The position numbers and the translations under genes were made by a program. The notes under the pieces are model-generated. The model saw only the letters and a program-made list of their open reading frames with translations, did not search any database and was not told where the DNA came from. From Candidatus Omnitrophota bacterium (lineage in GTDB: Bacteria > Omnitrophota > Gorgyraeia > Tantalellales > Tantalellaceae), in assembly GCA_043822245.1 (NCBI GenBank), contig JBDRBY010000046.1:1-61187 (forward strand): DNA of 61,187 nt, given 5' to 3'. Within the stretch, counting starts at the first letter, position 1, and every line of letters starts with the position of its first letter. This document shows, one piece after another, positions 567 to 61,187 of this stretch.

Positions 567-676
567 TAATTCGGGGGACACAATACTTAATTTTGGTGCG
601 AGAAAGAATAACTAATTAAGTATTGTGTCCCCCGAATTACATAAGTATTGTGTCCCCCGAATTACACCCCGAATTA
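567..676. repeat. long palindrome (CGGGGGACA..TTAATT family) plus extra half-copies
   Basis: The 26-bp arms 567-592 (TAATTCGGGGGACACAATACTTAATT) and 614-639 are exact reverse complements. Partial extra arms lie at 642-664 and 667-676. A related palindrome is at 9420-9494. Confidence 0.85.
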
Positions 677-711
677 CACCAGCTTATTCATAACATCCGG
701 CAGATGGGATT

Positions 712-18168: not shown

Positions 18169-18251
18169 GAAGAGAGTGTGATATTGTCAAGGTTGGAATT
18201 CGATAGTGTCAAAAATAACATGAAAGAATTATGAAAGAAAGAGTGAAGTAG

Positions 18252-18460
18252 TTTCCCTTCTCTTTTTTGAAAAAAGGGCAGATCTTTTCCACCCTTTTGA
18301 AAAAGCGTCAGAACTTTTCTTCTTTGAAAAAGCGTCAGAACTTTTCGTCTTTGAAAAAGCGTCAGAACTTTCCTTCTTTGAAAAAGCGTCAGAACTTTTC
18401 TTCTTTGAAAAAGCGTCAGAACTTTCCCCCCTTTGAAAAAGGGGGCCAGGGGGATTTAAT
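18252..18460 (+). repeat. FEKG-type element: 27-bp tandem array plus (+) cap
   Basis: About 5 copies of TTTGAAAAAGCGTCAGAACTTTTCTTC plus 2 degenerate units. Ends in CCCCCCTTTGAAAAAGGGGGCCAGGGGGATTTAAT. Confidence 0.9.
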
Positions 18461-18534
18461 ACAAGATGAACTGTAAAATGAATCTGAAATCAAATGCATA
18501 TCGATTGTGGAGAGAAATGACAAAATCCCCCTAA
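18461..18534 (+). pseudogene. DUF559 5' remnant fused to a (-) cap
   Basis: The mini-ORF 18466-18534 reads MNCKMNLKSNAYRLWREMTKSP*. Compare the intact DUF559 N-terminus MLNYKPNLKSKAQQLRKEMTDS: 12 of 20 aligned residues match with a one-codon gap. It has the same ACA[AC]GATG junction after the (+) cap and the same TCCCCCTAA stop inside the (-) cap. Confidence 0.6.
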
Positions 18535-18553
18535 CCCCCTTTTCCAAAGGGGG
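18523..18553 (-). repeat. (-) cap of FEKG-type element
   Basis: AAAATCCCCCTAACCCCCTTTTCCAAAGGGGG is the reverse complement of the (+) cap consensus. Confidence 0.85.
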
Positions 18554-18666
18554 AATTTTAAGGGGGAGGGAAGTTAATATTAGATAACTGCTTTAGATGC
18601 AAAGGATTAAGAAAAATTTGGATACAAACTTTTGACAATACCTTGGAAAGGAGTGGGAGGTAAAGA

Positions 18667-22209: not shown

Positions 22210-22220
22210 GGAATGAAAAA

Positions 22221-22243
22221 TTTAAAATGCAAAATGTAAAATT
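22221..22243. repeat. AT-rich 23-mer TTTAAAATGCAAAATGTAAAATT
   Basis: An identical 23-mer lies at 36393-36415. Confidence 0.85.
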
Positions 22244-22279
22244 ATAAAAGTAAAATTGTAATTTAAAAGGGAGAATTTT

Positions 22280-29612: not shown

Positions 29613-30194
29613 ATGAACATAGTACCGATGGTCATCGAAAAAGAGGGCAGGCTCGAGAGGGCGTATGATATTTATTCGCGGTTATTAAAGGACAGGATAA
29701 TTTTCATTGGTTCGCCTATAGATGATAATGTGGCGAACATAGTAGTCGCGCAGCTTTTATATCTTCAAACAGAGGACTCTGACAAAGACATCAACATTTA
29801 TATCAACAGCCCCGGTGGAAATGTTACGAGCGGTTTATCCATTTATGATACTATGCAATTTGTTAAGCCGGATGTGAATACTTATTGTATGGGCCAGGCC
29901 GCCAGTATGGGCGCGGTGCTGTTGGCCGCTGGTACAAAAGGTAAAAGGTACGCCCTGCCTTATTCCAGGATCATGATGCATCAGCCATGGGGTGGGACTC
30001 AAGGTACCGCTACTGATATTCATATCCAGGCTCAGGAGATACTGAGAATTAAAGATATGCTGGAAGGTATTCTTGTGAAACATACAGGACAAACGCTAAA
30101 ACGCGTACAAGCGGATACGGATAGAGACTATTTTATGAGCGCGAAAGAAGCGAAGGATTATGGAATAGTAGACCAGGTAGTTACCAGCGCATAA
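29613..30194 (+). CDS. clpP: ATP-dependent Clp protease proteolytic subunit
   Basis: [25 protein letters not shown] (Ser), MMHQP (His) and a downstream Asp. 193 aa. A G8 tract 29602-29609 serves as the RBS region. Confidence 0.95.
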
Positions 30195-30240
30195 CACGCA
30201 GTGATATACGCTAAGGTAGTATCAAAGGAAGCAAAAAAAA

Positions 30241-30443
30241 GGATACAAAATTGTTTCCCCCCTTTGAAAAAGGGGGAAAAAGGTAAGTTTCTTTATCGTT
30301 TCCACTTTGTGAAAAAGGGGGAAAAAGGTAAGTTTCTTTATCGTTTCCACTTTGTGAAAAAGGGCGCAAAATTGTTTACTTCTTTTGAAAAAGGATACAA
30401 AATTGTTTCCCCCCTTTGAAAAAGGGGGATAGGGGGATTTAAC
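30241..30443 (+). repeat. FEKG-type element: mixed 31/45-bp units plus (+) cap
   Basis: GGATACAAAATTGTTTCCCCCCTTTGAAAAA units at both ends. Two 45-bp units (period 30271 to 30316). Ends in GGGGGATAGGGGGATTTAAC. Confidence 0.9.
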
Positions 30444-30482
30444 GCGCGAGCCGTCACGAAGAAAAAACAGCCAACATCGAAA

Positions 30483-30569
30483 GAGGGCTACGGAGTGGAC
30501 ATAGAAGCAAATTTTGCGGATATAAGTTCAGAAATGAAAATGATTTGTAAGGTGGTGGAGAGAAAATAA
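30483..30569 (+). pseudogene. DUF559 3' remnant between (+) and (-) caps
   Basis: 30519-30566 matches the 3' end of the intact DUF559 gene at about 35 of 48 nt by eye. Translation ADISSEMKMICKVVERK* compares with RDTDSVMEVIYKVVEGKIKSP*. It is joined to the (-) cap in the same way. Confidence 0.6.
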
Positions 30570-30650
30570 ATCCCCCTAGCCCCCTTTTTCAAAGGGGGGA
30601 AAAGATAAGCCTTTTTTCAAAAGGGGGAGAAAGATAAGCTTTTTCAAGGG
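30568..30650 (-). repeat. (-) cap plus 2 array units
   Basis: AAATCCCCCTAGCCCCCTTTTTCAAAGGGGGG AAAAGATAAGCCTTTTTTCAAAAGGGGGAG AAAGATAAGCTTTTTCAAGGG. Confidence 0.85.
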
Positions 30651-30702
30651 ACATTTAACGAAAACTTTTGATAGTATCACGCTAATCAGAGGAGGGACAT
30701 TG

Positions 30703-31833
30703 ATGAAGAAATACAGGCTGTTGTCACCAGGGCCCACGCCGGTTCCTGAGAAGATTTTGTTAAAGATGGCGGATACAATAATGCATCATAGAACGCCTCA
30801 GTTTCAGGTTGTTTTAAAAAATGTGCATGAAAAGCTAAAAAAGGTTTTTCAGACTGTAAATCCGGTGTTTATTTTAGCGTCAAGCGGAACCGGCGCGATG
30901 GAAAGTTCTGTAATAAATTTCTTATCCAGGGGAGATAAGGCTATTGTGGTTAGGGGCGGAAAGTTTGGAGAACGATTTAGCGAAATTTGTGGAATGTATG
31001 GTGTAACAGCCATAGATTATGACGTCACCTGGGGCGAAGCCGCGGATCCCGGAGTTATAGAAAAACTCTTAAAAGAGTCTCCAGAGGTAAAAGCTGTATA
31101 TGCCACTTTGTGTGAGACATCAACAGGTGTGGTAAACGACATCAAGGAAATAGCTAAAAAGGTTTCTTTAACCGACGCGATACTTGTGGTGGACGCTATA
31201 AGCGGTTTAACCGCGGATGAATTAAGGCCCGACGAATGGGCGGTTGACGTGGTGGTTTCAGGTTCGCAAAAAGGGCTTATGCTTCCGCCGGGGATCGCGT
31301 TTTTAAGCCTTAGTCCAAAGGCGGAGAAACTTATGCAGTCGTCAGATTTGCCTAAATATTATTTTGATTTAAAGGCCGCCAAAAAAGCGCATGAAAAAAA
31401 TGATACGCCGTGGACTCCGGCTGTTTCTTTGATTATGGGGCTGGACAGCGCGTTGGATATGATACTGGAGGAAGGATTAGATAATGTGCTGAAAAGGCAC
31501 GCGTGTTTGGCAAACGCGGTACGGGAAGCGGTAAAGAGTATTGGGCTTGAAATTTTTGCCCAAAGGCCGTCAAACGCGGTGACATCGGTAAAAGTGCCGG
31601 CGGGAGTTGACGGCTCAGCGCTGGTAAAAAAGATGAGAGATGAACAAGGGATAACCATAGCCGGCGGGCAGGGAATTCTTAAGGGAAAAATTTTTAGGAT
31701 AGCGCATCTTGGTTATATGGACGGATATGATGAGATTTCCGCTGTCGCCGGAGTAGAAATGGTTCTTAAACAGCTTGGTTATAAAGTTGAGTTAGGCAAA
31801 GGTGTTGGGAAGTTGCAGGAAATGTTAGGGTAG
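30703..31833 (+). CDS. class V aminotransferase (serine-pyruvate/alanine-glyoxylate family; possibly phosphoserine aminotransferase role)
   Basis: LLSPGPTPVP and SGSQKGLMLPPG (PLP lysine). Adjacent to serA. RBS GGAGGG lies 6 nt before ATG 30703. Confidence 0.85.
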   Translation: MKKYRLLSPGPTPVPEKILLKMADTIMHHRTPQFQVVLKNVHEKLKKVFQTVNPVFILASSGTGAMESSVINFLSRGDKAIVVRGGKFGERFSEICGMYGVTAIDYDVTWGEAADPGVIEKLLKESPEVKAVYATLCETSTGVVNDIKEIAKKVSLTDAILVVDAISGLTADELRPDEWAVDVVVSGSQKGLMLPPGIAFLSLSPKAEKLMQSSDLPKYYFDLKAAKKAHEKNDTPWTPAVSLIMGLDSALDMILEEGLDNVLKRHACLANAVREAVKSIGLEIFAQRPSNAVTSVKVPAGVDGSALVKKMRDEQGITIAGGQGILKGKIFRIAHLGYMDGYDEISAVAGVEMVLKQLGYKVELGKGVGKLQEMLG

Positions 31834-33450: not shown

Positions 33451-33486
33451 TTTAGTGTGTAACGGTGGATCGGAACAAGCATCAAT

Positions 33487-33524
33487 TTCTCCCTTTGAAA
33501 AAGGGAGTTTAAGAGGGATTTAAC
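33487..33524 (+). repeat. variant (+) cap
   Basis: TTCTCCCTTTGAAAAAGGGAGTTTAAGAGGGATTTAAC. A (-) cap follows 12 nt later. Confidence 0.8.
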
Positions 33525-33536
33525 GGGTATTTAAAC

Positions 33537-33706
33537 AAAAATCCCCCTAACCCCCTTTTTCAAAGGGGGGAGCAACGAAGCCCTTTTTCAAAGGGGGGAG
33601 CAACGAAGCCCTTTTTCAAAGGGGGGAGCAACGAAGCCCTTTTTCAAAGGGGGGAGCAACGAAGTCCTTTTTCAAAGGGGGGAGCAACGAAGTCCTTTTT
33701 TTCAGG
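33537..33706 (-). repeat. (-) cap plus 28-bp tandem array
   Basis: AAAAATCCCCCTAACCCC, then 5 copies of CTTTTTCAAAGGGGGGAGCAACGAAG[CT]C plus a degenerate unit. Confidence 0.9.
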
Positions 33707-33761
33707 TGGATATGTTTGGTGGAAAATTTTGACAATACTCAGAGATACAAAAGGAGCTTAG

Positions 33762-35068: not shown

Positions 35069-36511
<1,443 letters not shown>

Positions 36512-48772: not shown

Positions 48773-49549
48773 ATGTCCTACAAAGTAAAACTTAACATTT
48801 TTGAGGGGCCGTTAGATCTTCTGCTGTTTCTTATCAAAAAAGAAAAAATTGATATTTATGATATTCCTATCGCTTCGGTTACTGATCAGTATTTGGAATA
48901 TATGAATTTGATAAAACTCCTGGATTTGGATATTGCCGGTGAATTTCTTGTAATGGCCGCGACTTTGATACATATAAAAAGCAAAATGCTTCTGCCTCAG
49001 GACGAAGTTGTTGAGGAAGAAGAAGAGCGGGATCCCAGGGAAGAGCTTATCGAGAGGCTCCTCGAATATAAGAAATATAAGGACGCGGCTGAAAAATTAA
49101 AGGATTTGAAGGAAAGAAATAAAGATATATTTTTCAGGCAGGTTCCCCCTGATAAAACTTCGATAATAGCCGAAGACGGAACAGAGTATTTTCAGGCGAG
49201 TTTGTTTGAACTCATTACCGCTTTCAAAGGGGTACTTAAGAAAGTTCAAAAAAAATCTGTTCATAGAGTCACGAAAAATAGATTTACTGTTGAGGATAAG
49301 ATTCACGCGGTGTATCATATTTTCGCGAAGCAGGAAAAAATTTATTTTTTATCGTTATTTCAGCAAGCTGAAGATAAAGATGAGGCAATAGTTATATTCC
49401 TGGCGGTATTAGAGCTCATAAAAAGGAGAGAAGTGCTTATCGCCCAAAAAGGCCTTTTTGAAGAAATTGAAATTATTAGAAATCCGGAATTGGTCCATAG
49501 TCTGGCGTATAGCGTTAGCGAGGAAAGGAACCCCGTTTCCCCCCTTTGA
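48773..49549 (+). CDS. scpA: segregation and condensation protein A
   Basis: FEGPLDLLLFLIKKEKIDIYDIPIA..TDQYL is the ScpA signature N-terminus. The last ~9 codons and stop lie in the repeat array. Confidence 0.9.
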   Translation: MSYKVKLNIFEGPLDLLLFLIKKEKIDIYDIPIASVTDQYLEYMNLIKLLDLDIAGEFLVMAATLIHIKSKMLLPQDEVVEEEEERDPREELIERLLEYKKYKDAAEKLKDLKERNKDIFFRQVPPDKTSIIAEDGTEYFQASLFELITAFKGVLKKVQKKSVHRVTKNRFTVEDKIHAVYHIFAKQEKIYFLSLFQQAEDKDEAIVIFLAVLELIKRREVLIAQKGLFEEIEIIRNPELVHSLAYSVSEERNPVSPL

Positions 49550-49693
49550 AAAAGGAAAGGACCCTGTTCCCCCCTTTGAAAAAGGAAAGGACCCTGTTCC
49601 CCCCTTTGAAAAAGGAAAGGACCCTGTTCCCCCCTTTGAAAAAGGAAAGGACCCTGTTCCCCCCTTTGAAAAAGGGGGCTAGGGGGATTTAAT
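49522..49693 (+). repeat. FEKG-type element: 30-bp tandem array (5 units) plus (+) cap
   Basis: GGAAAGGACCCTGTTCCCCCCTTTGAAAAA x4 plus one variant. Ends in GGGGGCTAGGGGGATTTAAT. Confidence 0.9.
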
Positions 49694-49781
49694 CCAAGCA
49701 TCCCCCATCGCTTCGCGAATCAAAGTGCCGGGGGCGGCAAAGCAGTTTTATTAATAGTCAAAATATTAACACGGTGCCCAT

Positions 49782-50330
49782 ATGCAAAACGTAGACAAAA
49801 TAAAAAACATAATTGAAGCTCTTCTTATTATCTCAGAGGACGGATTAAGCGCCGAAGATTTTAAAAAAGCGGTGCCTGATTCCGATATCAGCGACATTGA
49901 GGAAGGGATTCATCTTTTAAAAAATGAGTACGCCCTTCCCGCGCGGGCGTTTAATCTCGCGGAAATAGCCGGAAAGTATCGAATAGTGACTAAACCGGAA
50001 TATATGCCGTGGATAGATAACCTGTATCAAAAAGAAAAAGACAGATTAACCCTACCTGCTTTAGAAACCCTGGCTATTATCGCTTATAATCAGTCTATCA
50101 CACGTGCTGAGATTGAAAATGTCAGGGGAGTTAATTCAGGGGGGGTGATTAAGACGATTTTAGAAAAAGAACTTATCGAGATAAAAGGCAGAAGAGACAT
50201 AGCGGGACGGCCTCTTATGTATGGAGTTACTGAAAAATTTTTGAAAATATTCGGACTAAATTCCCTAAGTGACCTGCCGTCATTGAAGGATTTTAAAGAG
50301 GACGAATTGGAATTTGTAGCGGGGGGTTAA
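49782..50330 (+). CDS. scpB: segregation and condensation protein B
   Basis: IIEALL.ISE..L, LETLAIIAY.QSITRAEIE.VRGV and GRP..YGVT..FL..FGL; 182 aa. Confidence 0.9.
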   Translation: MQNVDKIKNIIEALLIISEDGLSAEDFKKAVPDSDISDIEEGIHLLKNEYALPARAFNLAEIAGKYRIVTKPEYMPWIDNLYQKEKDRLTLPALETLAIIAYNQSITRAEIENVRGVNSGGVIKTILEKELIEIKGRRDIAGRPLMYGVTEKFLKIFGLNSLSDLPSLKDFKEDELEFVAGG

Positions 50331-50344
50331 TGGTTTACGCGTTC

Positions 50345-50443
50345 AAAAATCCCCCTAGCCCCCTTTTTCAAAGGGGGGACAAAATTGAAAGAGGAAAGGA
50401 ACCCGTTCCCCCCTTTGGAAAAAGGGGGCTAGGGGGATTTAAT
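50345..50443. repeat. complete FEKG-type element: (-) cap, one unit, (+) cap
   Basis: AAAAATCCCCCTAGCCCCCTTTTTCAAAGGGGGG ... GGAAAGGAACCCGTTCCCCCCTTTGGAAAAAGGGGGCTAGGGGGATTTAAT, with ~32-bp terminal inverted repeats. Confidence 0.9.
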
Positions 50444-50492
50444 AAAGACAGCCAAAGTTCCCCCACAACCGCGGTTTAAACAGGAGCTAAGA

Positions 50493-51566
50493 ATGGATTC
50501 AAAAAAAATAACCAATTTCAGAAAAGAAATCAATAAACTGGATTCTCTTATAACTGACTTGATTAATAAAAGGGGCAAGGTTAGCCTTAACATTGGTGAA
50601 CTCAAAAAAAGTAAAAACCAGCCGGTTTACAGACCTGAGAGGGAAAGCCAGGTTTACAACCAGGTTACTAGAAAAAATCAGGGGCCTTTAACCGATGAAT
50701 CCATAAGGGCGGTATACCGTGAAATTATGTCAGCATGCCTTTCTTTGGAACACCCCCTAACGATCGCGTTTTTAGGCCCTGAACTTACTTTCACACAGCA
50801 GGCCGCTTTAAAAAAATTCGGTTCAAGTGTAAACTATCTTGCCTGCGATAATATTCCTGAAGTTTTTAGCGAAGTAGAAAAGGAAAATGCCGAGTATGGA
50901 GTAGTGCCTATAGAAAATTCTACCGAAGGTGCGGTTAACCACACTATGGATGTGTTTGTCGATTCTCCGCTTATGATTTGTTCTGAAATTTATTATCCAA
51001 TCAAGCACAGCCTGCTGAGCAAAAACAAAACTCTAAAATCCATTAAAAAGGTTTATTCCAATCCGCATGTTTTTGGGCAGTGCCGCTGGTGGCTTGAAAA
51101 GAATTTACCTTTCGCGGAGCTTTGTGACGTTGCCTCAACCGTTAAGGCGGCCGAGATAGTGTCCAAGATTTCAGATTCAGCCTGTATAGCGAGTGAACTC
51201 GCGGCAAAAAAATATCTGCTCAAGGTTTTGGCCAGGTCAATAGAAGATTCGCCTATCAATGAAACCCGGTTTCTTGTTGTGGGAAAACAAATGAGTAAAA
51301 TTTCAGGCAGGGACAAGACTTCTATACTTTTTTCAGTGAAGGACAAACCTGGAATCCTGCATGATGTACTGAGCCCTTTTAAAAAAGGTGGCATTAACCT
51401 GACAAAAATCGAATCCAGGCCGCTAAAAAAGAAAGCCTGGAAATATTACTTTTTTATCGATATGGAAGGGCACTATGAAACGCCCAAAATTAAAAAAGCG
51501 TTAAGTCAATTAGAAAAGAAATGTTATTTCCTAAAAATTTTGGGATCATATCCTAACGGAAGATAG
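50493..51566 (+). CDS. pheA: bifunctional chorismate mutase / prephenate dehydratase (P-protein)
   Basis: N-terminal CM (LRKEINKLDSLI..LINKR), PDT (IAFLGPELTFTQQAA; VPIENSTEGAV; TRFLVV) and ACT (TSILFSVKDKPGILHDVL). Confidence 0.9.
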   Translation: MDSKKITNFRKEINKLDSLITDLINKRGKVSLNIGELKKSKNQPVYRPERESQVYNQVTRKNQGPLTDESIRAVYREIMSACLSLEHPLTIAFLGPELTFTQQAALKKFGSSVNYLACDNIPEVFSEVEKENAEYGVVPIENSTEGAVNHTMDVFVDSPLMICSEIYYPIKHSLLSKNKTLKSIKKVYSNPHVFGQCRWWLEKNLPFAELCDVASTVKAAEIVSKISDSACIASELAAKKYLLKVLARSIEDSPINETRFLVVGKQMSKISGRDKTSILFSVKDKPGILHDVLSPFKKGGINLTKIESRPLKKKAWKYYFFIDMEGHYETPKIKKALSQLEKKCYFLKILGSYPNGR

Positions 51567-51575
51567 AAGTTAGAA

Positions 51576-51630
51576 GAAAAAGGAAGGAACCCATTCCCCC
51601 CTTTGAAAAAGGGGGCTAGGGGGATTTAAT
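51576..51630 (+). repeat. FEKG-type element: one unit plus (+) cap
   Basis: GAAAAAGGAAGGAACCCATTCCCCCCTTTGAAAAAGGGGGCTAGGGGGATTTAAT. An unrelated 9-bp-stem hairpin GACACATTT..AAATGTGTC follows at 51631-51661. Confidence 0.9.
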
Positions 51631-51763
51631 GACACATTTAAGGTATTACCTCAAATGTGTCAGAATGAAAAATTAAAAAACACAATTAAAAATCTAAAAA
51701 TTGATTTTTAATTTTAAATTGTAACTTTACATTTTTCATTTTTAATTGTACATTTACAAAACC

Positions 51764-52852
51764 ATGTGCAAAAAACATCTAAACAACATAAAACCGTACA
51801 AGCAGGGTAAACCCATTGAAGAAGTAAAACGCGAACTTGGGCTTAAAAAGGTTATAAAACTCGCTTCAAATGAAAGCCCCCGCCCTCCTTCAAAAAAAAC
51901 AATAGAGGCGATTAAGAAGCAGGCCGCGTCAGTAAACCGATACCCGGATGGGGGGTGTTTTTATCTCAGAGAGGCTTTGAGCAAGAAACTCTCTATTCCT
52001 GGAGACAATATTGTTTTTGGAAACGGGTCTGATGAGATTATTATCTTAGCGCTTCAAGCCTTCGTTAAGCCCGGTGACGAAGTTATTACGGCAAATCCCA
52101 CGTTTCTTGTTTACGGCATAGCCTCTATGGTAAAAGGCGCGCGGGTCCGCGAAGTTCCCCTGAAAAATTACAAATACGATCTTGAAGCCATGCTTAAGGC
52201 TGTTACCCGAAGGACCAGGGTTGTATTTATTGCCAATCCCGATAATCCCACAGGGACATATGTGACAAAAAAAGAATTGGATTTGTTTTTAAAAAATGTT
52301 CCGCGGGATATACTCGTTTTTATTGATGAAGCATATTATGAATTCGCGAGGGGCGGCGATTATCCTGAAACTTTGAGCCTGATTAAAACAGGAAACCGTA
52401 ACATTATAATCGCGAGGACTTTTTCTAAAGCCTACGGCCTTGCCGGATTAAGAATCGGCTACGGCCTCGCGGGGAAAGATATAGCTGATATCCTAAACAA
52501 GGTGAGAGAACCGTTTAATGTGAATTCTCTCGCGCAGACAGCGGCAATCGCGGCTCTGAGTGACGATTCTTACATGGAAGAGACGATAAAATTTATCAAG
52601 GAAGAAAAGGAAAAATATTGCGGTGTATTTAAATCATTAAACGTGGGATATCTTCCAAGTAAAGCTAATTTCATTCTTATAAACACAAAAAGGGATTCAA
52701 AAGAAATTTTTAACCGTCTCCTCGCGAAAGGAATTATCGTGCGGGAAATGTCGGAGTGGGGGCTCGATGGATTTATAAGAGTAACCATAGGCCTCCCGGA
52801 TGAGAATAAAGCGTTTTTTAAGGCGTTTAGAGAGATTGTTGCCAAAGTGTGA
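51764..52852 (+). CDS. hisC: histidinol-phosphate / aromatic aminotransferase (class II)
   Basis: LASNESP, GNGSDE, PDNPTG and FSKAYGLAGLRIGY (PLP lysine). ATG 51764 is preferred over TTG 51746. Confidence 0.85.
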   Translation: MCKKHLNNIKPYKQGKPIEEVKRELGLKKVIKLASNESPRPPSKKTIEAIKKQAASVNRYPDGGCFYLREALSKKLSIPGDNIVFGNGSDEIIILALQAFVKPGDEVITANPTFLVYGIASMVKGARVREVPLKNYKYDLEAMLKAVTRRTRVVFIANPDNPTGTYVTKKELDLFLKNVPRDILVFIDEAYYEFARGGDYPETLSLIKTGNRNIIIARTFSKAYGLAGLRIGYGLAGKDIADILNKVREPFNVNSLAQTAAIAALSDDSYMEETIKFIKEEKEKYCGVFKSLNVGYLPSKANFILINTKRDSKEIFNRLLAKGIIVREMSEWGLDGFIRVTIGLPDENKAFFKAFREIVAKV

Positions 52853-52854
52853 GG

Positions 52855-53130
52855 AAAAAATCCCCCTAACCCCCTTTTTCAAAGGGGGGACAGAATTGAA
52901 AAAGGAGTGGAAACATTTCCCTTCCACTCTTTGAAAAAGGAGTGGAAACATTTCACTTTTACCATTTGAAAAAGGAGTGTAAACATTTTCCTTCCACTCT
53001 TTGAAAAAGGAGTGTAAACATTTTCCTTCCACTCTTTGAAAAAGGAGTGTAAACATTTTCCTTCCACTCTTTGAAAAAGGAGTGTAAACATTTCCCCCCT
53101 TTGAAAAAGGGGGGCGAGGGGGGATTTAAC
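52855..53130. repeat. complete FEKG-type element, 35-bp units x6
   Basis: (-) cap, ACAGAATTGAAAAA, GGAGTG[GT]AAACATTT..CCACTCTTTGAAAAA units, then (+) cap CCCCCCTTTGAAAAAGGGGGGCGAGGGGGGATTTAAC. Confidence 0.9.
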
Positions 53131-53135
53131 ACACG

Positions 53136-53504
53136 ATGTTAAATTACAAACCAAACTTAAAATCAAAGGCTCAGCAATTACGAAAAGAAATGACCGACAG
53201 TGAAAGAAAACTATGGTCAAGATTGAGAGGAAAGCAAATTTTAGATGTTCAATTTTACCGGCAGAAGCCCATTGGAAATTATGTCGTGGATTTTTACGCG
53301 TCCAAAGTGAAAATAGTGGTTGAAGTGGATGGATCTGGGCACATGGAGGAAGGGCAGGCGCTAAAGGATGCACCACGAGATGAATATTTAAAACGTCAGG
53401 GATTAGATGTGTTACGTTTTGATAATTTGCAGGTTTTGCGGGATACGGATTCGGTAATGGAAGTGATTTATAAGGTGGTGGAAGGGAAGATTAAATCCCC
53501 CTAA
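53136..53504 (+). CDS. DUF559 (Vsr-like / PD-(D/E)XK-type) endonuclease domain protein
   Basis: LRKEMTDSERKLWSRLRGKQILDVQFYRQKPIGNYVVDFYASKVKIVVEVDGSGH....D..RDEYLKRQGLDVLRFDN matches the DUF559 pattern (LR.nmT.aE..LW..LR....kFrRQ.piG.YivDFyc...klviElDG..H). 122 aa. Confidence 0.9.
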   Translation: MLNYKPNLKSKAQQLRKEMTDSERKLWSRLRGKQILDVQFYRQKPIGNYVVDFYASKVKIVVEVDGSGHMEEGQALKDAPRDEYLKRQGLDVLRFDNLQVLRDTDSVMEVIYKVVEGKIKSP

Positions 53505-53660
53505 CCCCCTTTTTCAAAGGGGGGACAGAATTGAAAAAGGAGTGGAAACATTTCACTTTTACCATTTGAAAAAGGAGTGTAAACATTTTCCTTCCACTCT
53601 TTGAAAAAGGAGTGTAAACATTTCCCCCCTTTGAAAAAGGGGGGCGAGGGGGGATTTAAC
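53491..53660. repeat. complete FEKG-type element, 35-bp units x3 (paralogue of 52855-53130)
   Basis: Same caps, same linker and same unit types as the left copy. Its first 14 nt encode the last 4 codons and stop of DUF559. Confidence 0.9.
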
Positions 53661-53697
53661 TCCCCCCTCCCTAAAAAAAAACAACACAGGAGAAATT

Positions 53698-54714
53698 ATG
53701 ATTATCGTTCTGAAATCTTCCGCTACTAAAAAACAGATAAGCCACATTATAGAAAAGATAGAAAAACTGGGGCTTAAGCCATGGTTGTCCTGTGGCGTGG
53801 AACGTTCAATTATCGGCGTAATTGGAGAAGAACAGGTTGTAAGGACTCTGCCGCTTGAGGGATTCCCAGGGGTAGAAAAGGTTATGACAATTCTTAAGCC
53901 GTACAAACTGGCGTCTCTTGATTATAAAAGCACTCCCAGTGAAATAAAAATAGCAGATGGCGTGACTATTGGCGGCAAAAAAATAGTTGTCATGGCCGGC
54001 CCGTGTTCTGTTGAGAACAGAGCGATGCTGATGGAAACGGCCGAAGAAGTAAAAAAATCCGGAGCTGTATTTTTAAGAGGCGGCGCGTTTAAGCCAAGAA
54101 CAAGCCCGTATAGTTTTCAAGGTCTGGGGGAGGAAGGCCTGAAATATTTGAGGGAAGCCGGAAAAAAAACAGGCCTTCTTGTTGTGACGGAACTAATGGA
54201 TATTCGTATGCTTGGAATGATGGTTAAATACGCGGACATCATACAGGTAGGCGCGCGTAATATGCAAAATTTTGATCTTTTAAAAGAACTCGGCAAGATA
54301 AGAAAACCCGTGCTTTTAAAAAGAGGAATAGCCAACACTATAAATGAATTTCTTATGAGCGCTGAATACATTCTCGCGGGCGGGAACGACAACGTGATTT
54401 TGTGTGAACGTGGCATCCGGACCTTTGAAACTTTTACCAGATTCACGCTTGATTTAAACGCTGTCGCCGCCATAAAAAGTTTAAGCCATCTTCCTATTAT
54501 CGTTGATCCGTCTCATGGGACAGGCAGGTGGAATTTAGTGCTTCCGGCGGCCTTAGCCGCGGTTGCTTCCGGTGCCGACGGGCTTATGATAGAGGTCCAT
54601 CCTAATCCGGAAGAAGCGTTTTCCGACGGGGATCAATCGTTGCTCCCGGCTAAGTTCGCGAAACTGATGGAAGGCGTAAAAACCGTCGCGAAAGCAGTTG
54701 GGAGGACAGTTTAA
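53698..54714 (+). CDS. aroF: 3-deoxy-7-phosphoheptulonate (DAHP) synthase, type I-beta with N-terminal regulatory domain
   Basis: MIIVLK...I..I..KI...G (ferredoxin-like N-domain), then [41 protein letters not shown] and DPSHG motifs. 338 aa. Confidence 0.9.
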
Positions 54715-54850
54715 TAATCCCCCTAACCCCCTTTTTCAAAGGGGGGAAAGAACTGAGATAAAGAGGAAAGGGCGAGAAGTTTCCCCACTTTGAAAAAGGA
54801 AATGGACCCGTTTCCACCCTTTGAAAAAGGGTGGCTAGGGGGGATTTAAT
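54715..54850. repeat. complete FEKG-type element: (-) cap, 2-3 units, (+) cap
   Basis: TAATAATCCCCCTAACCCCCTTTTTCAAAGGGGGG ... GGAAATGGACCCGTTTCCACCCTTTGAAAAAGGGTGGCTAGGGGGGATTTAAT. Confidence 0.9.
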
Positions 54851-60729: not shown

Positions 60730-61187
60730 AAACTGGAGAGTTTGATCCTGGCTCAGAACGAACGCTGGCGGCGTGGATTAGGCATGCAAGTCGAACGATC
60801 CCTTTCTTTGAGGGGGATAGTGGCAAACGGGTGAGTAACGCGTGAGTAATTTACCTTTGGGTTTGGAACAACCTGTCGAAAGGCAGGCTAATACCGGATA
60901 AGACCACAATTCCTAAGGAATTGCGGTTAAAGGTGGGGATCCTGAAAATGGACCTATCGCCCATTGATGAGCTCGCGTCCTATCAGCTTGTTGGTGAGGT
61001 AAAAGCTTACCAAGGCGATGACGGGTAGCTGGTCTGAGAGGATGGTCAGCCACACTGGGACTGAGACACTGCCCAGACTCCTACGGGAGGCTGCAGTCGA
61101 GAATCTTTTGCAATGCCCGAAAGGGTGACAATGCGACGCCGCGTGAGCGATGAAGGCCTTCGGGTTGTAAAGCTCTGTCAGCTCGGA
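60730..61187 (+). rRNA. rrs: 16S ribosomal RNA, 5' ~460 nt (truncated by window edge)
   Basis: AGAGTTTGATCCTGGCTCAG (27F site) at 60737-60756, ...GGCGGCGTGGATTAGGCATGCAAGTCGAACG, and ACTCCTACGGGAGGCTGCAGTCGAGAATCTTTTGCAATG (the 341-360 region). Confidence 0.97.

What the first reader, a model, noticed from the sequence alone, without database searches (positions are those of the whole stretch)
30420..30600. Decayed 3' fragment of a DUF559 gene between a (+) cap and a (-) cap (clpP | aminotransferase gap)
The 124-nt spacer between caps (30444-30567) ends with GATATAAGTTCAGAAATGAAAATGATTTGTAAGGTGGTGGAGAGAAAA. The intact gene has GATACGGATTCGGTAATGGAAGTGATTTATAAGGTGGTGGAAGGGAAG, about 35 of 48 nt identical by eye. 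The translations are DISSEMKMICKVVERK* and DTDSVMEVIYKVVEGKIKSP*. A 1-nt deletion creates a premature stop just before the cap. Weaker similarity continues upstream (CAAATTTTGCGG vs CAGGTTTTGCGGG). This is a third independent locus with the cap(+)-DUF559-cap(-) architecture.
Basis: seen in the sequence. Interest (0 to 1): 0.72.

Follow-up and report, generated by a model that had tools for sequence, protein, structure and literature searches.

The report
Dead copy of cap-flanked DUF559 element
This stretch is the broken leftover of a small nuclease gene (DUF559) still held between two intact inverted hairpin "caps", and following it up shows that cap–DUF559–cap units look like a widespread, apparently undescribed kind of small mobile DNA in bacteria.

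Summary
Bases 30511-30566 are homologous to the last ~58 nt of the intact DUF559 gene at 53136-53504. A gapped comparison gives 44/55 identities. The local score is 47 against 18.8±2.5 in shuffles (0 of 2000 reach it). The remnant abuts the (-) cap exactly as the intact gene does. It is frameshifted and lacks the catalytic core, and the remaining 69 nt of the spacer match nothing.

The two caps form a 36-nt inverted repeat that is 97% complementary, far better preserved than the interior.

Three related Omnitrophota contigs have only 13-21 nt between clpP and the aminotransferase gene. The whole 505-nt repeat cluster is therefore an insertion. It carries 14-nt outer inverted repeats and a perfect 7-bp direct repeat.

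Cap–DUF559–cap units recur across phyla. They occur at 89-94% identity in contigs with unrelated flanks. 63% of 67 DUF559 genes have lineage-specific caps of the same design.

Best reading: an internally deleted, non-autonomous relic of a selfish element encoding a Vsr-like nuclease. How the element moves is inferred, not shown. I found no description of it in the searchable literature.

The parts
30208..30214 (+). ACGCTAA, left copy of a perfect 7-bp direct repeat that abuts the outer inverted repeat (resembles a target-site duplication)
   Evidence: D7
30215..30228 (+). Outer inverted-repeat arm GGTAGTATCAAAGG. The same motif (TTTTGAYARTAYC or its complement) borders the cap clusters at 18.2/18.6 kb and 33.7 kb and occurs next to cap clusters in other Omnitrophota loci.
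   Evidence: 11/14 complementary to 30665-30678 by direct reading
30236..30405 (+). Tandem array of about 5 hairpin units (periods 45 and 31 nt) sharing the core TTTGAAAAAGG. It lies outside the cap pair and runs into the R-cap hairpin.
   Evidence: D1
30406..30441 (+). (+) cap, here called R: hairpin CCCCCCTTTGAAAAAGGGGG, linker ATA, then GGGGGATTTA. It is the left arm of the 36-nt terminal inverted repeat.
   Evidence: I1
30442..30510 (+). It may be filler or sequence decayed beyond recognition.
30511..30566 (+). Remnant of the DUF559 3' end: 44/55 identities to 53433-53490, with indels that break the frame. The in-frame part translates as ...DISSEMKMICKVVERK.
30567..30602 (-). (-) cap, here called L: TAAATCCCCC, linker TAG, then the hairpin CCCCCTTTTTCAAAGGGGGG. 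It is the right arm of the inverted repeat. Its first three bases (30567-30569) are the premature in-frame TAA.
   Evidence: I1
30603..30664 (-). Two further degenerate hairpin units in (-) orientation (period 28-29 nt) and a degenerate cap-tail-like AGGGACATTTAACG
   Evidence: D2, D3
30665..30678 (+). Outer inverted-repeat arm CTTTTGATAGTATC
30679..30685 (+). ACGCTAA, right copy of the 7-bp direct repeat
   Evidence: D7
53091..53529 (+). Reference element: R cap (53091-53129), intact DUF559 gene (53136-53504, 122 aa, all family-invariant residues present) and L cap (53491-53529). The cap linker TAA is the gene's stop codon. Nearly identical cap-array-cap modules flank it at 52856-53129 and 53491-53659.
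18421..18556 (+). Sister relic: R cap, a 5' fragment of DUF559 (ATG at 18466; MNCKMNLKSNAYRLWREMT fused to KSP*; 46/64 nt identical to the gene start), then L cap
33488..33573 (+). Sister relic: a degenerate R cap, then L cap about 13 nt further on (cap coordinates), with no gene remnant. A 5-unit (-) array follows.

Best explanation
The feature is a dead, internally deleted copy of a small selfish element. The intact form of that element is [hairpin + G-block cap] - DUF559 gene - [inverted cap].

The gene encodes a ~120-aa nuclease of the PD-(D/E)XK superfamily with a Vsr-like fold. The relic keeps both caps, the presumed cis-acting ends, almost perfectly. Of the gene it keeps only about 55 nt of the 3' end, at 80% identity and frameshifted, plus 69 nt of unrecognisable DNA. 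It therefore cannot make protein.

The relic lies inside a 464-nt composite of hairpin arrays with outer inverted repeats and a 7-bp direct repeat. That composite was inserted into a clpP-aminotransferase junction that is otherwise only 13-21 nt long.

Inferred mechanism, not shown:
- The DUF559 nuclease, here supplied by the intact copy at 53136-53504, recognises and nicks or cuts the cap palindromes.
- Host recombination or gap repair then copies or rearranges DNA between caps.
- Interrupted repair leaves copies that keep both ends and lose the middle, as happens for internally deleted P and Ac/Ds elements.
- Slipped repair at the hairpins would generate the flanking tandem arrays.
For: Shown:
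- Significant, collinear nucleotide homology to the 3' end of the intact gene.
- A 36-nt inverted repeat, 97% complementary, around the relic, against 80% identity in its interior.
- The intact copy has every family-invariant residue (D52, E63, D65, H69, D78, R81, R94).
- Its model is confident (pLDDT 87). The best structural matches are DUF559 structure 3HRL and the Vsr-like homing endonuclease I-Bth0305I.
- Empty sites: three related Omnitrophota contigs keep tig-clpP-aminotransferase-PGDH synteny, with gaps of 13-21 nt and no caps. A second junction is 12 nt in relatives and 311 nt here.
- Outer inverted repeats plus a perfect 7-bp flanking direct repeat.
- The same cap architecture flanks DUF559 homologues in other Omnitrophota, a gammaproteobacterial MAG (Thalassocella), Algoriphagus and others. 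It is seen in 42 of 67 non-redundant metagenomic genes, with lineage-specific cap sequences.
- Cap-DUF559-cap blocks of ~505-540 nt at 89-94% identity sit in contigs whose flanks are unrelated at DNA and protein level.
- R-to-L cap spacings cluster at 23-32 nt and at 367-378 nt, with relics in between.
- Extra 3'-end fragments recur beside DUF559 genes, including E. coli ycjD.
Against: - No biochemical link between DUF559 and the caps exists. The association is positional only.
- DUF559 is not a known transposase and alone cannot explain a 7-bp direct repeat. The outer inverted repeats could belong to an unrelated transposon.
- Only 6-7 of 120 cap-bearing genome loci contain a DUF559 gene within 8 kb, so caps mostly exist without a neighbouring gene.
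- The clean direct repeat is seen only at this cluster. The 18-kb and 33-kb clusters have none.
- 25 of 67 DUF559 genes show no significant flanking inverted repeat.
- Decay in place cannot be told apart from arrival as an already deleted copy using one contig.
- The protein profile does not recognise the relic.
Confidence: 0.7

Rival explanations
1. The 464-nt block is a miniature inverted-repeat element (MITE) of an ordinary DDE-type transposon, using the outer repeats GGTAGTATCAAAGG / CTTTTGATAGTATC and a 7-bp duplication. The caps and the DUF559 scrap would be passengers that play no part in movement.
For: - Outer inverted repeats with a perfect abutting 7-bp direct repeat.
- The outer motif recurs at the 18-kb and 33-kb clusters and in other Omnitrophota loci.
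- A PD-(D/E)XK nuclease alone has no known strand-transfer activity (established knowledge).
Against: - No transposase was noticed in the window. Only a subset of its ORFs was scanned.
- The intact DUF559 locus and most cap sites lack the outer motif.
- In other lineages the shared mobile block ends at the caps, not at other repeats.
- Caps flank DUF559 across phyla where the Omnitrophota outer motif is absent.
Confidence: 0.2
2. The caps and arrays are host-useful REP-like structural or regulatory elements, for example for mRNA stability, operon punctuation or protein binding. DUF559 would be a vertically kept, domesticated gene that maintains them, as RAYT maintains REPINs. The relic would be an ordinary deletion product with no selfish dynamics.
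For: - Caps are strongly intergenic: 113 of 131 lie outside ORFs, against 77% of bases inside ORFs.
- They sit at operon junctions of housekeeping genes.
- They are far better conserved than the relic interior.
- Doublets resembling REPINs exist.
- The same site is occupied in related genomes L001 and L004.
Against: - Close relatives lack the elements entirely at the same junctions.
- There is no terminator-like signal on the coding strand.
- Near-identical units occur in unrelated flanks.
- The same cap type occurs in many phyla. That fits horizontal spread better than lineage-specific domestication.
Confidence: 0.15
3. The similarity to DUF559 is chance or compositional, and the spacer is just random DNA between two repeats.
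For: The protein-profile search is not significant (E = 0.18). 69 of the 124 spacer bases match nothing.
Against: - 0 of 2000 shuffles reach the observed score.
- The best 48-mer match in 122 kb of sequence (both strands) is exactly the collinear, cap-adjacent site.
- A sister relic keeps the 5' end in the equivalent position.
Confidence: 0.01
4. The stretch is a functional small gene or structured RNA: a 49-codon open frame, or a long hairpin RNA in the clpP operon transcript.
For: The frame from 30420 is open through to the TAA at 30567. The strand folds strongly.
Against: - There is no start codon or ribosome-binding site for the long frame. The only ATG-initiated peptide is 11 aa.
- The frame upstream of the indels is not the ancestral one.
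- No Rfam family matches.
- The fold is simply the pairing of the two caps.
- The element is absent in relatives.
Confidence: 0.03

Closest known systems
REP / REPIN elements and their RAYT transposases (PMC3116915, PMC3337134)
   Same: - Short GC-rich hairpin repeats dispersed in intergenic DNA.
- They occur as inverted doublets. Here that is hairpin-R, 23-32 nt, L-hairpin, about 90 nt in all.
- The associated gene is itself flanked by the repeats in inverted orientation.
- There are many more repeats than genes.
   Different: - The gene is a Vsr-like PD-(D/E)XK nuclease, not an HUH tyrosine transposase.
- The same cap sequence occurs in many phyla, whereas REPs are lineage-specific.
- The gene here decays into fragments and its units appear in unrelated flanks. 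That looks less domesticated than RAYTs.
- Long locus-specific tandem arrays accompany the caps.
EDxHD / Vsr-like homing endonucleases, prototype I-Bth0305I (PMC3239194; PDB 3R3P)
   Same: - Same nuclease fold: profile E = 2e-3 and Foldseek E about 1e-4, TM 0.78.
- A selfish gene whose product would cut a (pseudo)palindromic site and rely on host repair.
- A life cycle that ends in degenerate copies.
   Different: - I-Bth0305I is a multidomain enzyme inside a group I intron in phage recA.
- DUF559 here is a single small domain, free-standing in intergenic DNA between inverted hairpin caps.
- No intron or intein is involved, and the target is unknown.
Internally deleted non-autonomous derivatives of terminal-inverted-repeat elements (MITEs; P and Ac/Ds deletion derivatives), from general knowledge
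   Same: Both termini are retained and the interior is lost. Different relics keep different internal pieces. Unrecognisable 'filler' lies between the breakpoints.
   Different: The parent encodes no known transposase. The relic is not (yet) seen as an amplified family with identical breakpoints.
E. coli ycjD (DUF559) and the dispersed GC-rich palindrome next to it, possibly the catalogued 'BoxC' repeat (PMC2267715 lists BoxC as 56 bp, ~22-32 copies; identity not verified)
   Same: - ycjD ends in a GC hairpin.
- It is followed by a decayed duplicate of its own 3' end, present in 3363 of 5426 genomes.
- Then comes a composite palindrome, tcccctc-GCC-cctct-GGGG-agaggg-TTA-gggtgagggga. It has the same design of outer block, 3-nt linker, inner hairpin. 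It occurs at a median of 18 places per genome in all 5426 genomes.
   Different: The block sequences differ. No R cap lies upstream of ycjD. There is a single gene copy. No link between YcjD and these repeats has been reported in the papers I could search.

Membership tests
DUF559 / PF04480 gene (applied to the relic itself) | Significant match of the translation to the family profile | tested here: not met
   hmmsearch against a profile of 120 close homologues gives E = 0.18. NCBIfam gives no hit.
DUF559 / PF04480 gene (applied to the relic itself) | Homology to a verified family member | tested here: met
   Nucleotide alignment to the 3' end of the gene at 53136-53504, which is PF04480 at E = 5.9e-36: score 47, 0 of 2000 shuffles as good; 35/48 and 44/55 identities.
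DUF559 / PF04480 gene (applied to the relic itself) | Catalytic core (D...E-x-D-G-x-x-H...D) present and reading frame intact | tested here: not met
   Only the region equivalent to residues ~100-118 survives, and it is frameshifted. The core is present in the intact copy.
Vsr-like PD-(D/E)XK nuclease fold (applied to the intact reference gene) | Fold and conserved acidic/His residues | tested here: met
   AlphaFold model pLDDT 87.4. Foldseek: 3HRL E = 1.4e-6, 3R3P E = 8.8e-5, Vsr 1VSR only E = 0.17. Sequence profile: 3hrl 9e-32, 3r3p 2e-3.
MITE / non-autonomous terminal-inverted-repeat element | Terminal inverted repeats | tested here: met
   36-nt arms, 97% complementary. Outer 14-nt arms are 11/14 complementary (direct reading).
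MITE / non-autonomous terminal-inverted-repeat element | Target-site duplication | tested here: inconclusive
   A perfect 7-bp ACGCTAA abuts the outer repeats of this cluster. None was found for the cap pair itself or for the 18-kb and 33-kb clusters.
MITE / non-autonomous terminal-inverted-repeat element | Multiple copies with the same internal sequence, and a parent encoding a transposase | tested here: not met
   The three relics in the window have different interiors. The parent gene is a small nuclease, not a known transposase. A genome-wide copy count is not possible from one contig.
REP/REPIN-RAYT system | Associated gene is an HUH (Y1) RAYT transposase | tested here: not met
   The gene is PF04480, a Vsr-like fold.
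REP/REPIN-RAYT system | Hairpin repeats flank the gene in inverted orientation and are dispersed as intergenic singlets and doublets | tested here: met
   flanking; doublets; intergenic.
Homing endonuclease gene | Enzyme cleaves the unoccupied target, and the gene is copied in by repair | not testable with these tools
   Only indirect evidence: empty orthologous junctions and identical units in unrelated flanks.
Homing endonuclease gene | Residence in an intron or intein, or in a conserved gene target | tested here: not met
   All copies are intergenic between caps.
Intrinsic terminator | GC hairpin followed by a T tract on the transcribed strand | tested here: not met
   No + strand site in 30100-30800. 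The single hit is on the - strand, and the count is not above shuffles.
Any curated RNA family (Rfam 15) | Match at the gathering score | tested here: not met
   The only hit in the window is 16S rRNA. The local permissive search returned only sub-threshold noise.

The most novel reading that the evidence does not exclude
DUF559 proteins, a very large 'unknown function' family that includes E. coli YcjD, may be the nucleases of a pan-bacterial class of palindromic intergenic repeats. The repeat design is hairpin, 3-nt linker, repeated G-block. This would be a second REP/RAYT-like partnership built on a Vsr-like nuclease instead of an HUH transposase. The gene would sit between two caps and spread or rearrange by nuclease-triggered repair, leaving solo caps, ~90-nt doublets, tandem arrays and gene fragments such as this one. 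On this reading, E. coli's long-unexplained GC-rich palindromes next to ycjD would be the same phenomenon.
Probability: 0.35. Interest if true: 0.85.

Novelty: new variant of a known kind. Interest (0 to 1): 0.62.

Why it matters
Taken alone, the relic is an ordinary piece of genomic debris. Its value is as a marker.

- With its sister relics and the intact copy, it shows that DUF559 genes live and die between conserved inverted hairpin caps.
- The comparative data show the same arrangement from Omnitrophota to Bacteroidota and Gammaproteobacteria.
- This gives a testable function for a very large family of uncharacterised small nucleases.
- It offers an origin for a class of intergenic palindromes, possibly including BoxC-like repeats of E. 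coli.
- It also offers a source of the repeat-rich junctions that fragment metagenome assemblies. Most close homologues sit on contigs shorter than 2 kb.
- It suggests a route to mobility based on a Vsr-like nuclease plus host repair, with no conventional transposase.

Tried and rejected
- **Rfam.** A gathering-threshold scan of the window and a permissive scan of 30150-30750 found nothing relevant.
- **Protein-level detection of the relic.** It failed against a DUF559 profile and against NCBIfam.
- **Extending homology into the 5' 69 nt.** DNA z = -0.2. Weak tblastn hits to the N-terminal and GYxVD regions are matched by 61% of shuffles. blastn against all held DNA gave nothing.
- **Matching the relic to other DUF559 lineages.** No signal, so it derives from this genome's own lineage.
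- **Terminator or promoter explanation.** Counts are not above shuffles.
- **Exact-protein look-up of ClpP.** Not on record.
- **Direct repeats at the 18-kb and 33-kb clusters.** Only imperfect or offset repeats were found.
- **The cap linker as a Vsr-type CTWGG mismatch site.** I considered this. The linker is biased to TTA/CTA (73 of 131). That is better explained by its complement, TAA/TAG, serving as the DUF559 stop codon in the L cap. I found no support for a mismatch role.
- **Defence-system reading.** PADLOC gave only weak domain-level hits.
- **Literature.** Searches for DUF559, ycjD, Vsr-like plus palindrome, and the cap sequence strings found no description of this architecture.
- **BoxC.** Its identity with the E. 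coli palindrome could not be verified.

Full report
**Setting.** The window is a 61-kb contig with 41.6% G+C, and nearly all genes lie on the + strand. The closest relatives of its DUF559 protein and of its aminotransferase are from Candidatus Omnitrophota MAGs.

Many intergenic gaps hold a repeat I call a cap. In + orientation (R) it reads CCCCCCTTTGAAAAAGGGGG-NTA-GGGGGATTTAA. In - orientation (L) it is the reverse complement. I count 10 good R caps, one degenerate R cap and 8 L caps. Next to the caps lie tandem arrays of hairpin units. These share the loop TTTGAAAAA, but unit sequence and period (27-45 nt) differ from locus to locus.

**Checking the observation.**
- They match at exactly 35/48 positions. 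The next best match in the whole window is 30/48.
- A local alignment of the 124-nt spacer to the interior of the intact gene scores 47. Shuffles give 18.8±2.5 (maximum 31), and 0 of 2000 reach 47.
- Anchored at the cap, 44 of 55 aligned bases are identical, with 3 gap positions.
- The reference gene is a true DUF559 gene (PF04480, E = 5.9e-36).
- The relic's reading frame is broken by indels. In my alignment a net 2-nt loss before the cap brings TAA at 30567-30569 into frame.
- The other 69 nt of the spacer show no homology at DNA or protein level.
- The family profile does not detect the relic (E = 0.18), and the 3' ends of other DUF559 lineages do not match it.

The remnant is therefore short, old (about 20% diverged) and derived from this genome's own gene lineage.

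**Anatomy around the relic.** The two caps form a 36-nt inverted repeat, 97% complementary. As a single strand the unit folds at -44.7 kcal/mol, z = -7.8. The caps are far better preserved than what lies between them.

Outside the caps are hairpin arrays. Outside those are 14-nt imperfect inverted repeats, GGTAGTATCAAAGG (30215-30228) and CTTTTGATAGTATC (30665-30678). A perfect 7-bp direct repeat, ACGCTAA, immediately flanks them. The outer motif also borders the cap clusters at 18.2/18.6 kb and 33.7 kb (6 hits against 1.0 expected). It lies next to cap clusters in two other Omnitrophota loci as well.

**Empty sites.** Three related contigs (aminotransferase 79-85% identical) keep the order tig-clpP-aminotransferase-PGDH. 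They have only 13-21 nt between clpP and the aminotransferase gene and no caps anywhere in about 6 kb. Here the gap is 505 nt. The next junction (PGDH | HMGL-like gene) is 12 nt in relatives and 311 nt here, again filled with caps. The repeat clusters are therefore lineage-specific insertions into tight operon junctions.

**The cap-DUF559-cap unit.** In the window, R-X-L occurs four times:
- X is the intact gene at 53.1 kb.
- X is a 5' fragment at 18.46 kb.
- X is this 3' fragment at 30.5 kb.
- X is about 13 nt with no gene remnant at 33.5 kb.

In the intact copy the R cap ends 6 nt before the ATG, and the L-cap linker TAA is the stop codon.

The same flanks surround homologues elsewhere:
- other Omnitrophota, at 70-74% amino-acid identity;
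- a gammaproteobacterial MAG labelled Thalassocella, Algoriphagus aquimarinus and others;
- 42 of 67 non-redundant full-length homologues from metagenomes. In these, upstream and downstream flanks share a significant inverted repeat of the same design: C-block, loop, G-block, 3-5-nt linker, repeated G-block. The block sequences are lineage-specific.

Blocks of about 505-540 nt consisting of cap-gene-cap are 89-94% identical between contigs whose flanks are unrelated at DNA and protein level (L182/L197/L179 and L180/L186). This is the strongest evidence that the unit is a discrete, movable piece of DNA.

**The caps alone.** By my own arithmetic, about 70 chance hits would be expected under uniform base composition. 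Chance is excluded, however, because 110 of 131 matches also carry the upstream hairpin arm that the pattern did not require.

Further properties of these caps:
- 113 of 131 lie outside ORFs of at least 120 aa, whereas 77% of bases lie inside such ORFs.
- Only 6-7 loci have a DUF559 gene. In five of them (L011, L014, L069, L075, L100) it abuts the cap.
- R-to-L spacings cluster at 23-32 nt (about 90-nt doublets, similar within a genome) and at 367-378 nt (intact genes). Relics fall in between. L-to-R spacings are broad.
- Some sites are single 42-nt perfect palindromes.

**The protein.** All family-invariant residues are present in the window's intact copy. The model is confident (pLDDT 87.4). 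Its best structural matches are DUF559 structure 3HRL and the catalytic domain of the Vsr-like homing endonuclease I-Bth0305I. Vsr itself and TnsA match only weakly.

**Interpretation.** What is shown:
- The relic is homologous to the DUF559 3' end.
- It sits between intact inverted caps.
- The cluster that holds it is an insertion.
- Cap-DUF559-cap is a recurrent discrete unit found in unrelated contexts.

What is inferred:
- The nuclease acts on the caps.
- Spread or rearrangement occurs through host repair.
- Interrupted repair produces end-retaining deletion derivatives and extra 3' fragments. Such fragments are also seen next to E. coli ycjD and in L197, L179/L182 and L019.

The 7-bp direct repeat and outer repeats raise a real alternative. 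A conventional transposon may have carried this composite, with the DUF559 relic as a passenger.

**Literature.** Only 25 papers in the searchable library mention DUF559. None describes flanking caps or mobility. Searches for ycjD, for Vsr-like plus palindrome, and for the sequence strings found nothing either. YcjD is known only as a predicted Vsr-related nuclease (PMC1189080). The closest described systems are REP/REPIN-RAYT (PMC3116915, PMC3337134) and EDxHD homing endonucleases (PMC3239194).

**Verdict.** The relic itself is ordinary, but the element family it belongs to appears undescribed and is widely distributed. I rate it a new variant of a known kind, with moderately high interest.

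Noticed in passing
L007-L126 (genome-contig hits): The cap core, together with its hairpin arm that the pattern did not require, occurs in species genomes of many phyla. These include Omnitrophota, Patescibacteria, Myxococcota, Nitrospirota, Nitrospinota, Bacteroidota, Gammaproteobacteria, Chloroflexota and Planctomycetota. It is mostly intergenic and mostly has no DUF559 gene nearby. Some sites are single 42-nt perfect palindromes, AAATCCCCCTAACCCCCTTT-GC-AAAGGGGGTTAGGGGGATTT.
   Followed up: partly
L127 (E. coli K-12 NC_000913.3 1351170-1351830): ycjD (DUF559) ends in a GC hairpin. It is followed by a decayed duplicate of its own 3' end, present in 3363 of 5426 E. coli genomes. Then comes a composite palindrome of cap-like design that occurs at a median of 18 places per genome in all 5426 genomes. 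This may be the 'BoxC' repeat, but I could not verify that.
   Followed up: partly
window 52856-53129 and 53491-53659: The intact DUF559 gene is flanked on both sides by the same L cap - 35-nt-unit array - R cap module. The two copies are identical apart from the number of array units (5.7 vs 2.7). This points to a very recent duplication or to homogenisation.
   Followed up: partly
L006 (669-nt ENA contig) vs window 53107-53659: L006 has an identical DUF559 gene and downstream module, with one extra array unit. Beyond the R cap it continues into sequence that is absent from the window. It could be a second genomic copy, a strain variant or an assembly join.
   Followed up: partly
window 18202-18228; L003 1362-1388: A ~27-nt stretch, G(A/G)TAGTGTCAAAAATAA(C/T)ATGAAAGAA, is nearly identical in this window and in another Omnitrophota MAG. 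In both it lies at the outer edge of a hairpin array that leads to an R cap.
   Followed up: partly
window 33451-33761: A second insertion relative to related contigs: the gap is 311 nt here and 12 nt in L210/L211. It holds a degenerate R cap, then an L cap about 13 nt further on, and five perfect 28-nt units.
   Followed up: yes
window 49521-54849: Five consecutive junctions of a housekeeping cluster all carry caps or arrays. The genes are scpA, scpB, pheA-like, an aminotransferase, DAHP synthase and prephenate dehydrogenase.
   Followed up: partly
L019 5250-5909 (Nitrospirales chromosome OY820905): Three tandem copies (period ~275 nt) of an internal DUF559 fragment (profile positions 38-70) lie near a full-length DUF559 gene.
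   Followed up: no
L197 2978-3030: Right after an intact cap-DUF559-cap unit comes a decayed second copy of the gene's 3' end plus L cap. This is the same pattern as in E. coli and in this window.
   Followed up: no
all class-A caps; DUF559 stops: The 3-nt cap linker is strongly biased to TTA/CTA (73 of 131), the complements of TAA/TAG. In many genes the stop codon lies in the L-cap linker, in the hairpin loop or in the outer TAAA. Many database DUF559 proteins end in ...KSP or NPP, or read on into PPF.KGG.
   Followed up: partly
window 60730-61187: The 5' end of a bacterial 16S rRNA gene runs off the end of the contig (Rfam RF00177, 398 bits).
   Followed up: no
window 22212-22269, 36384-36414, 51704-51758: AT-rich short tandem repeats of the AATGTAA / AATTTTAAATTGTAA type occur in intergenic DNA. 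They are unrelated to the caps.
   Followed up: no
window 51630-51663: An almost perfect hairpin, TGACACATTTAAGG...CCTCAAATGTGTCA, lies directly after the R cap at 51619.
   Followed up: no
window 617-680: An exact 25-nt tandem duplication, TAAGTATTGTGTCCCCCGAATTACA, with an overlapping 12-nt repeat.
   Followed up: no
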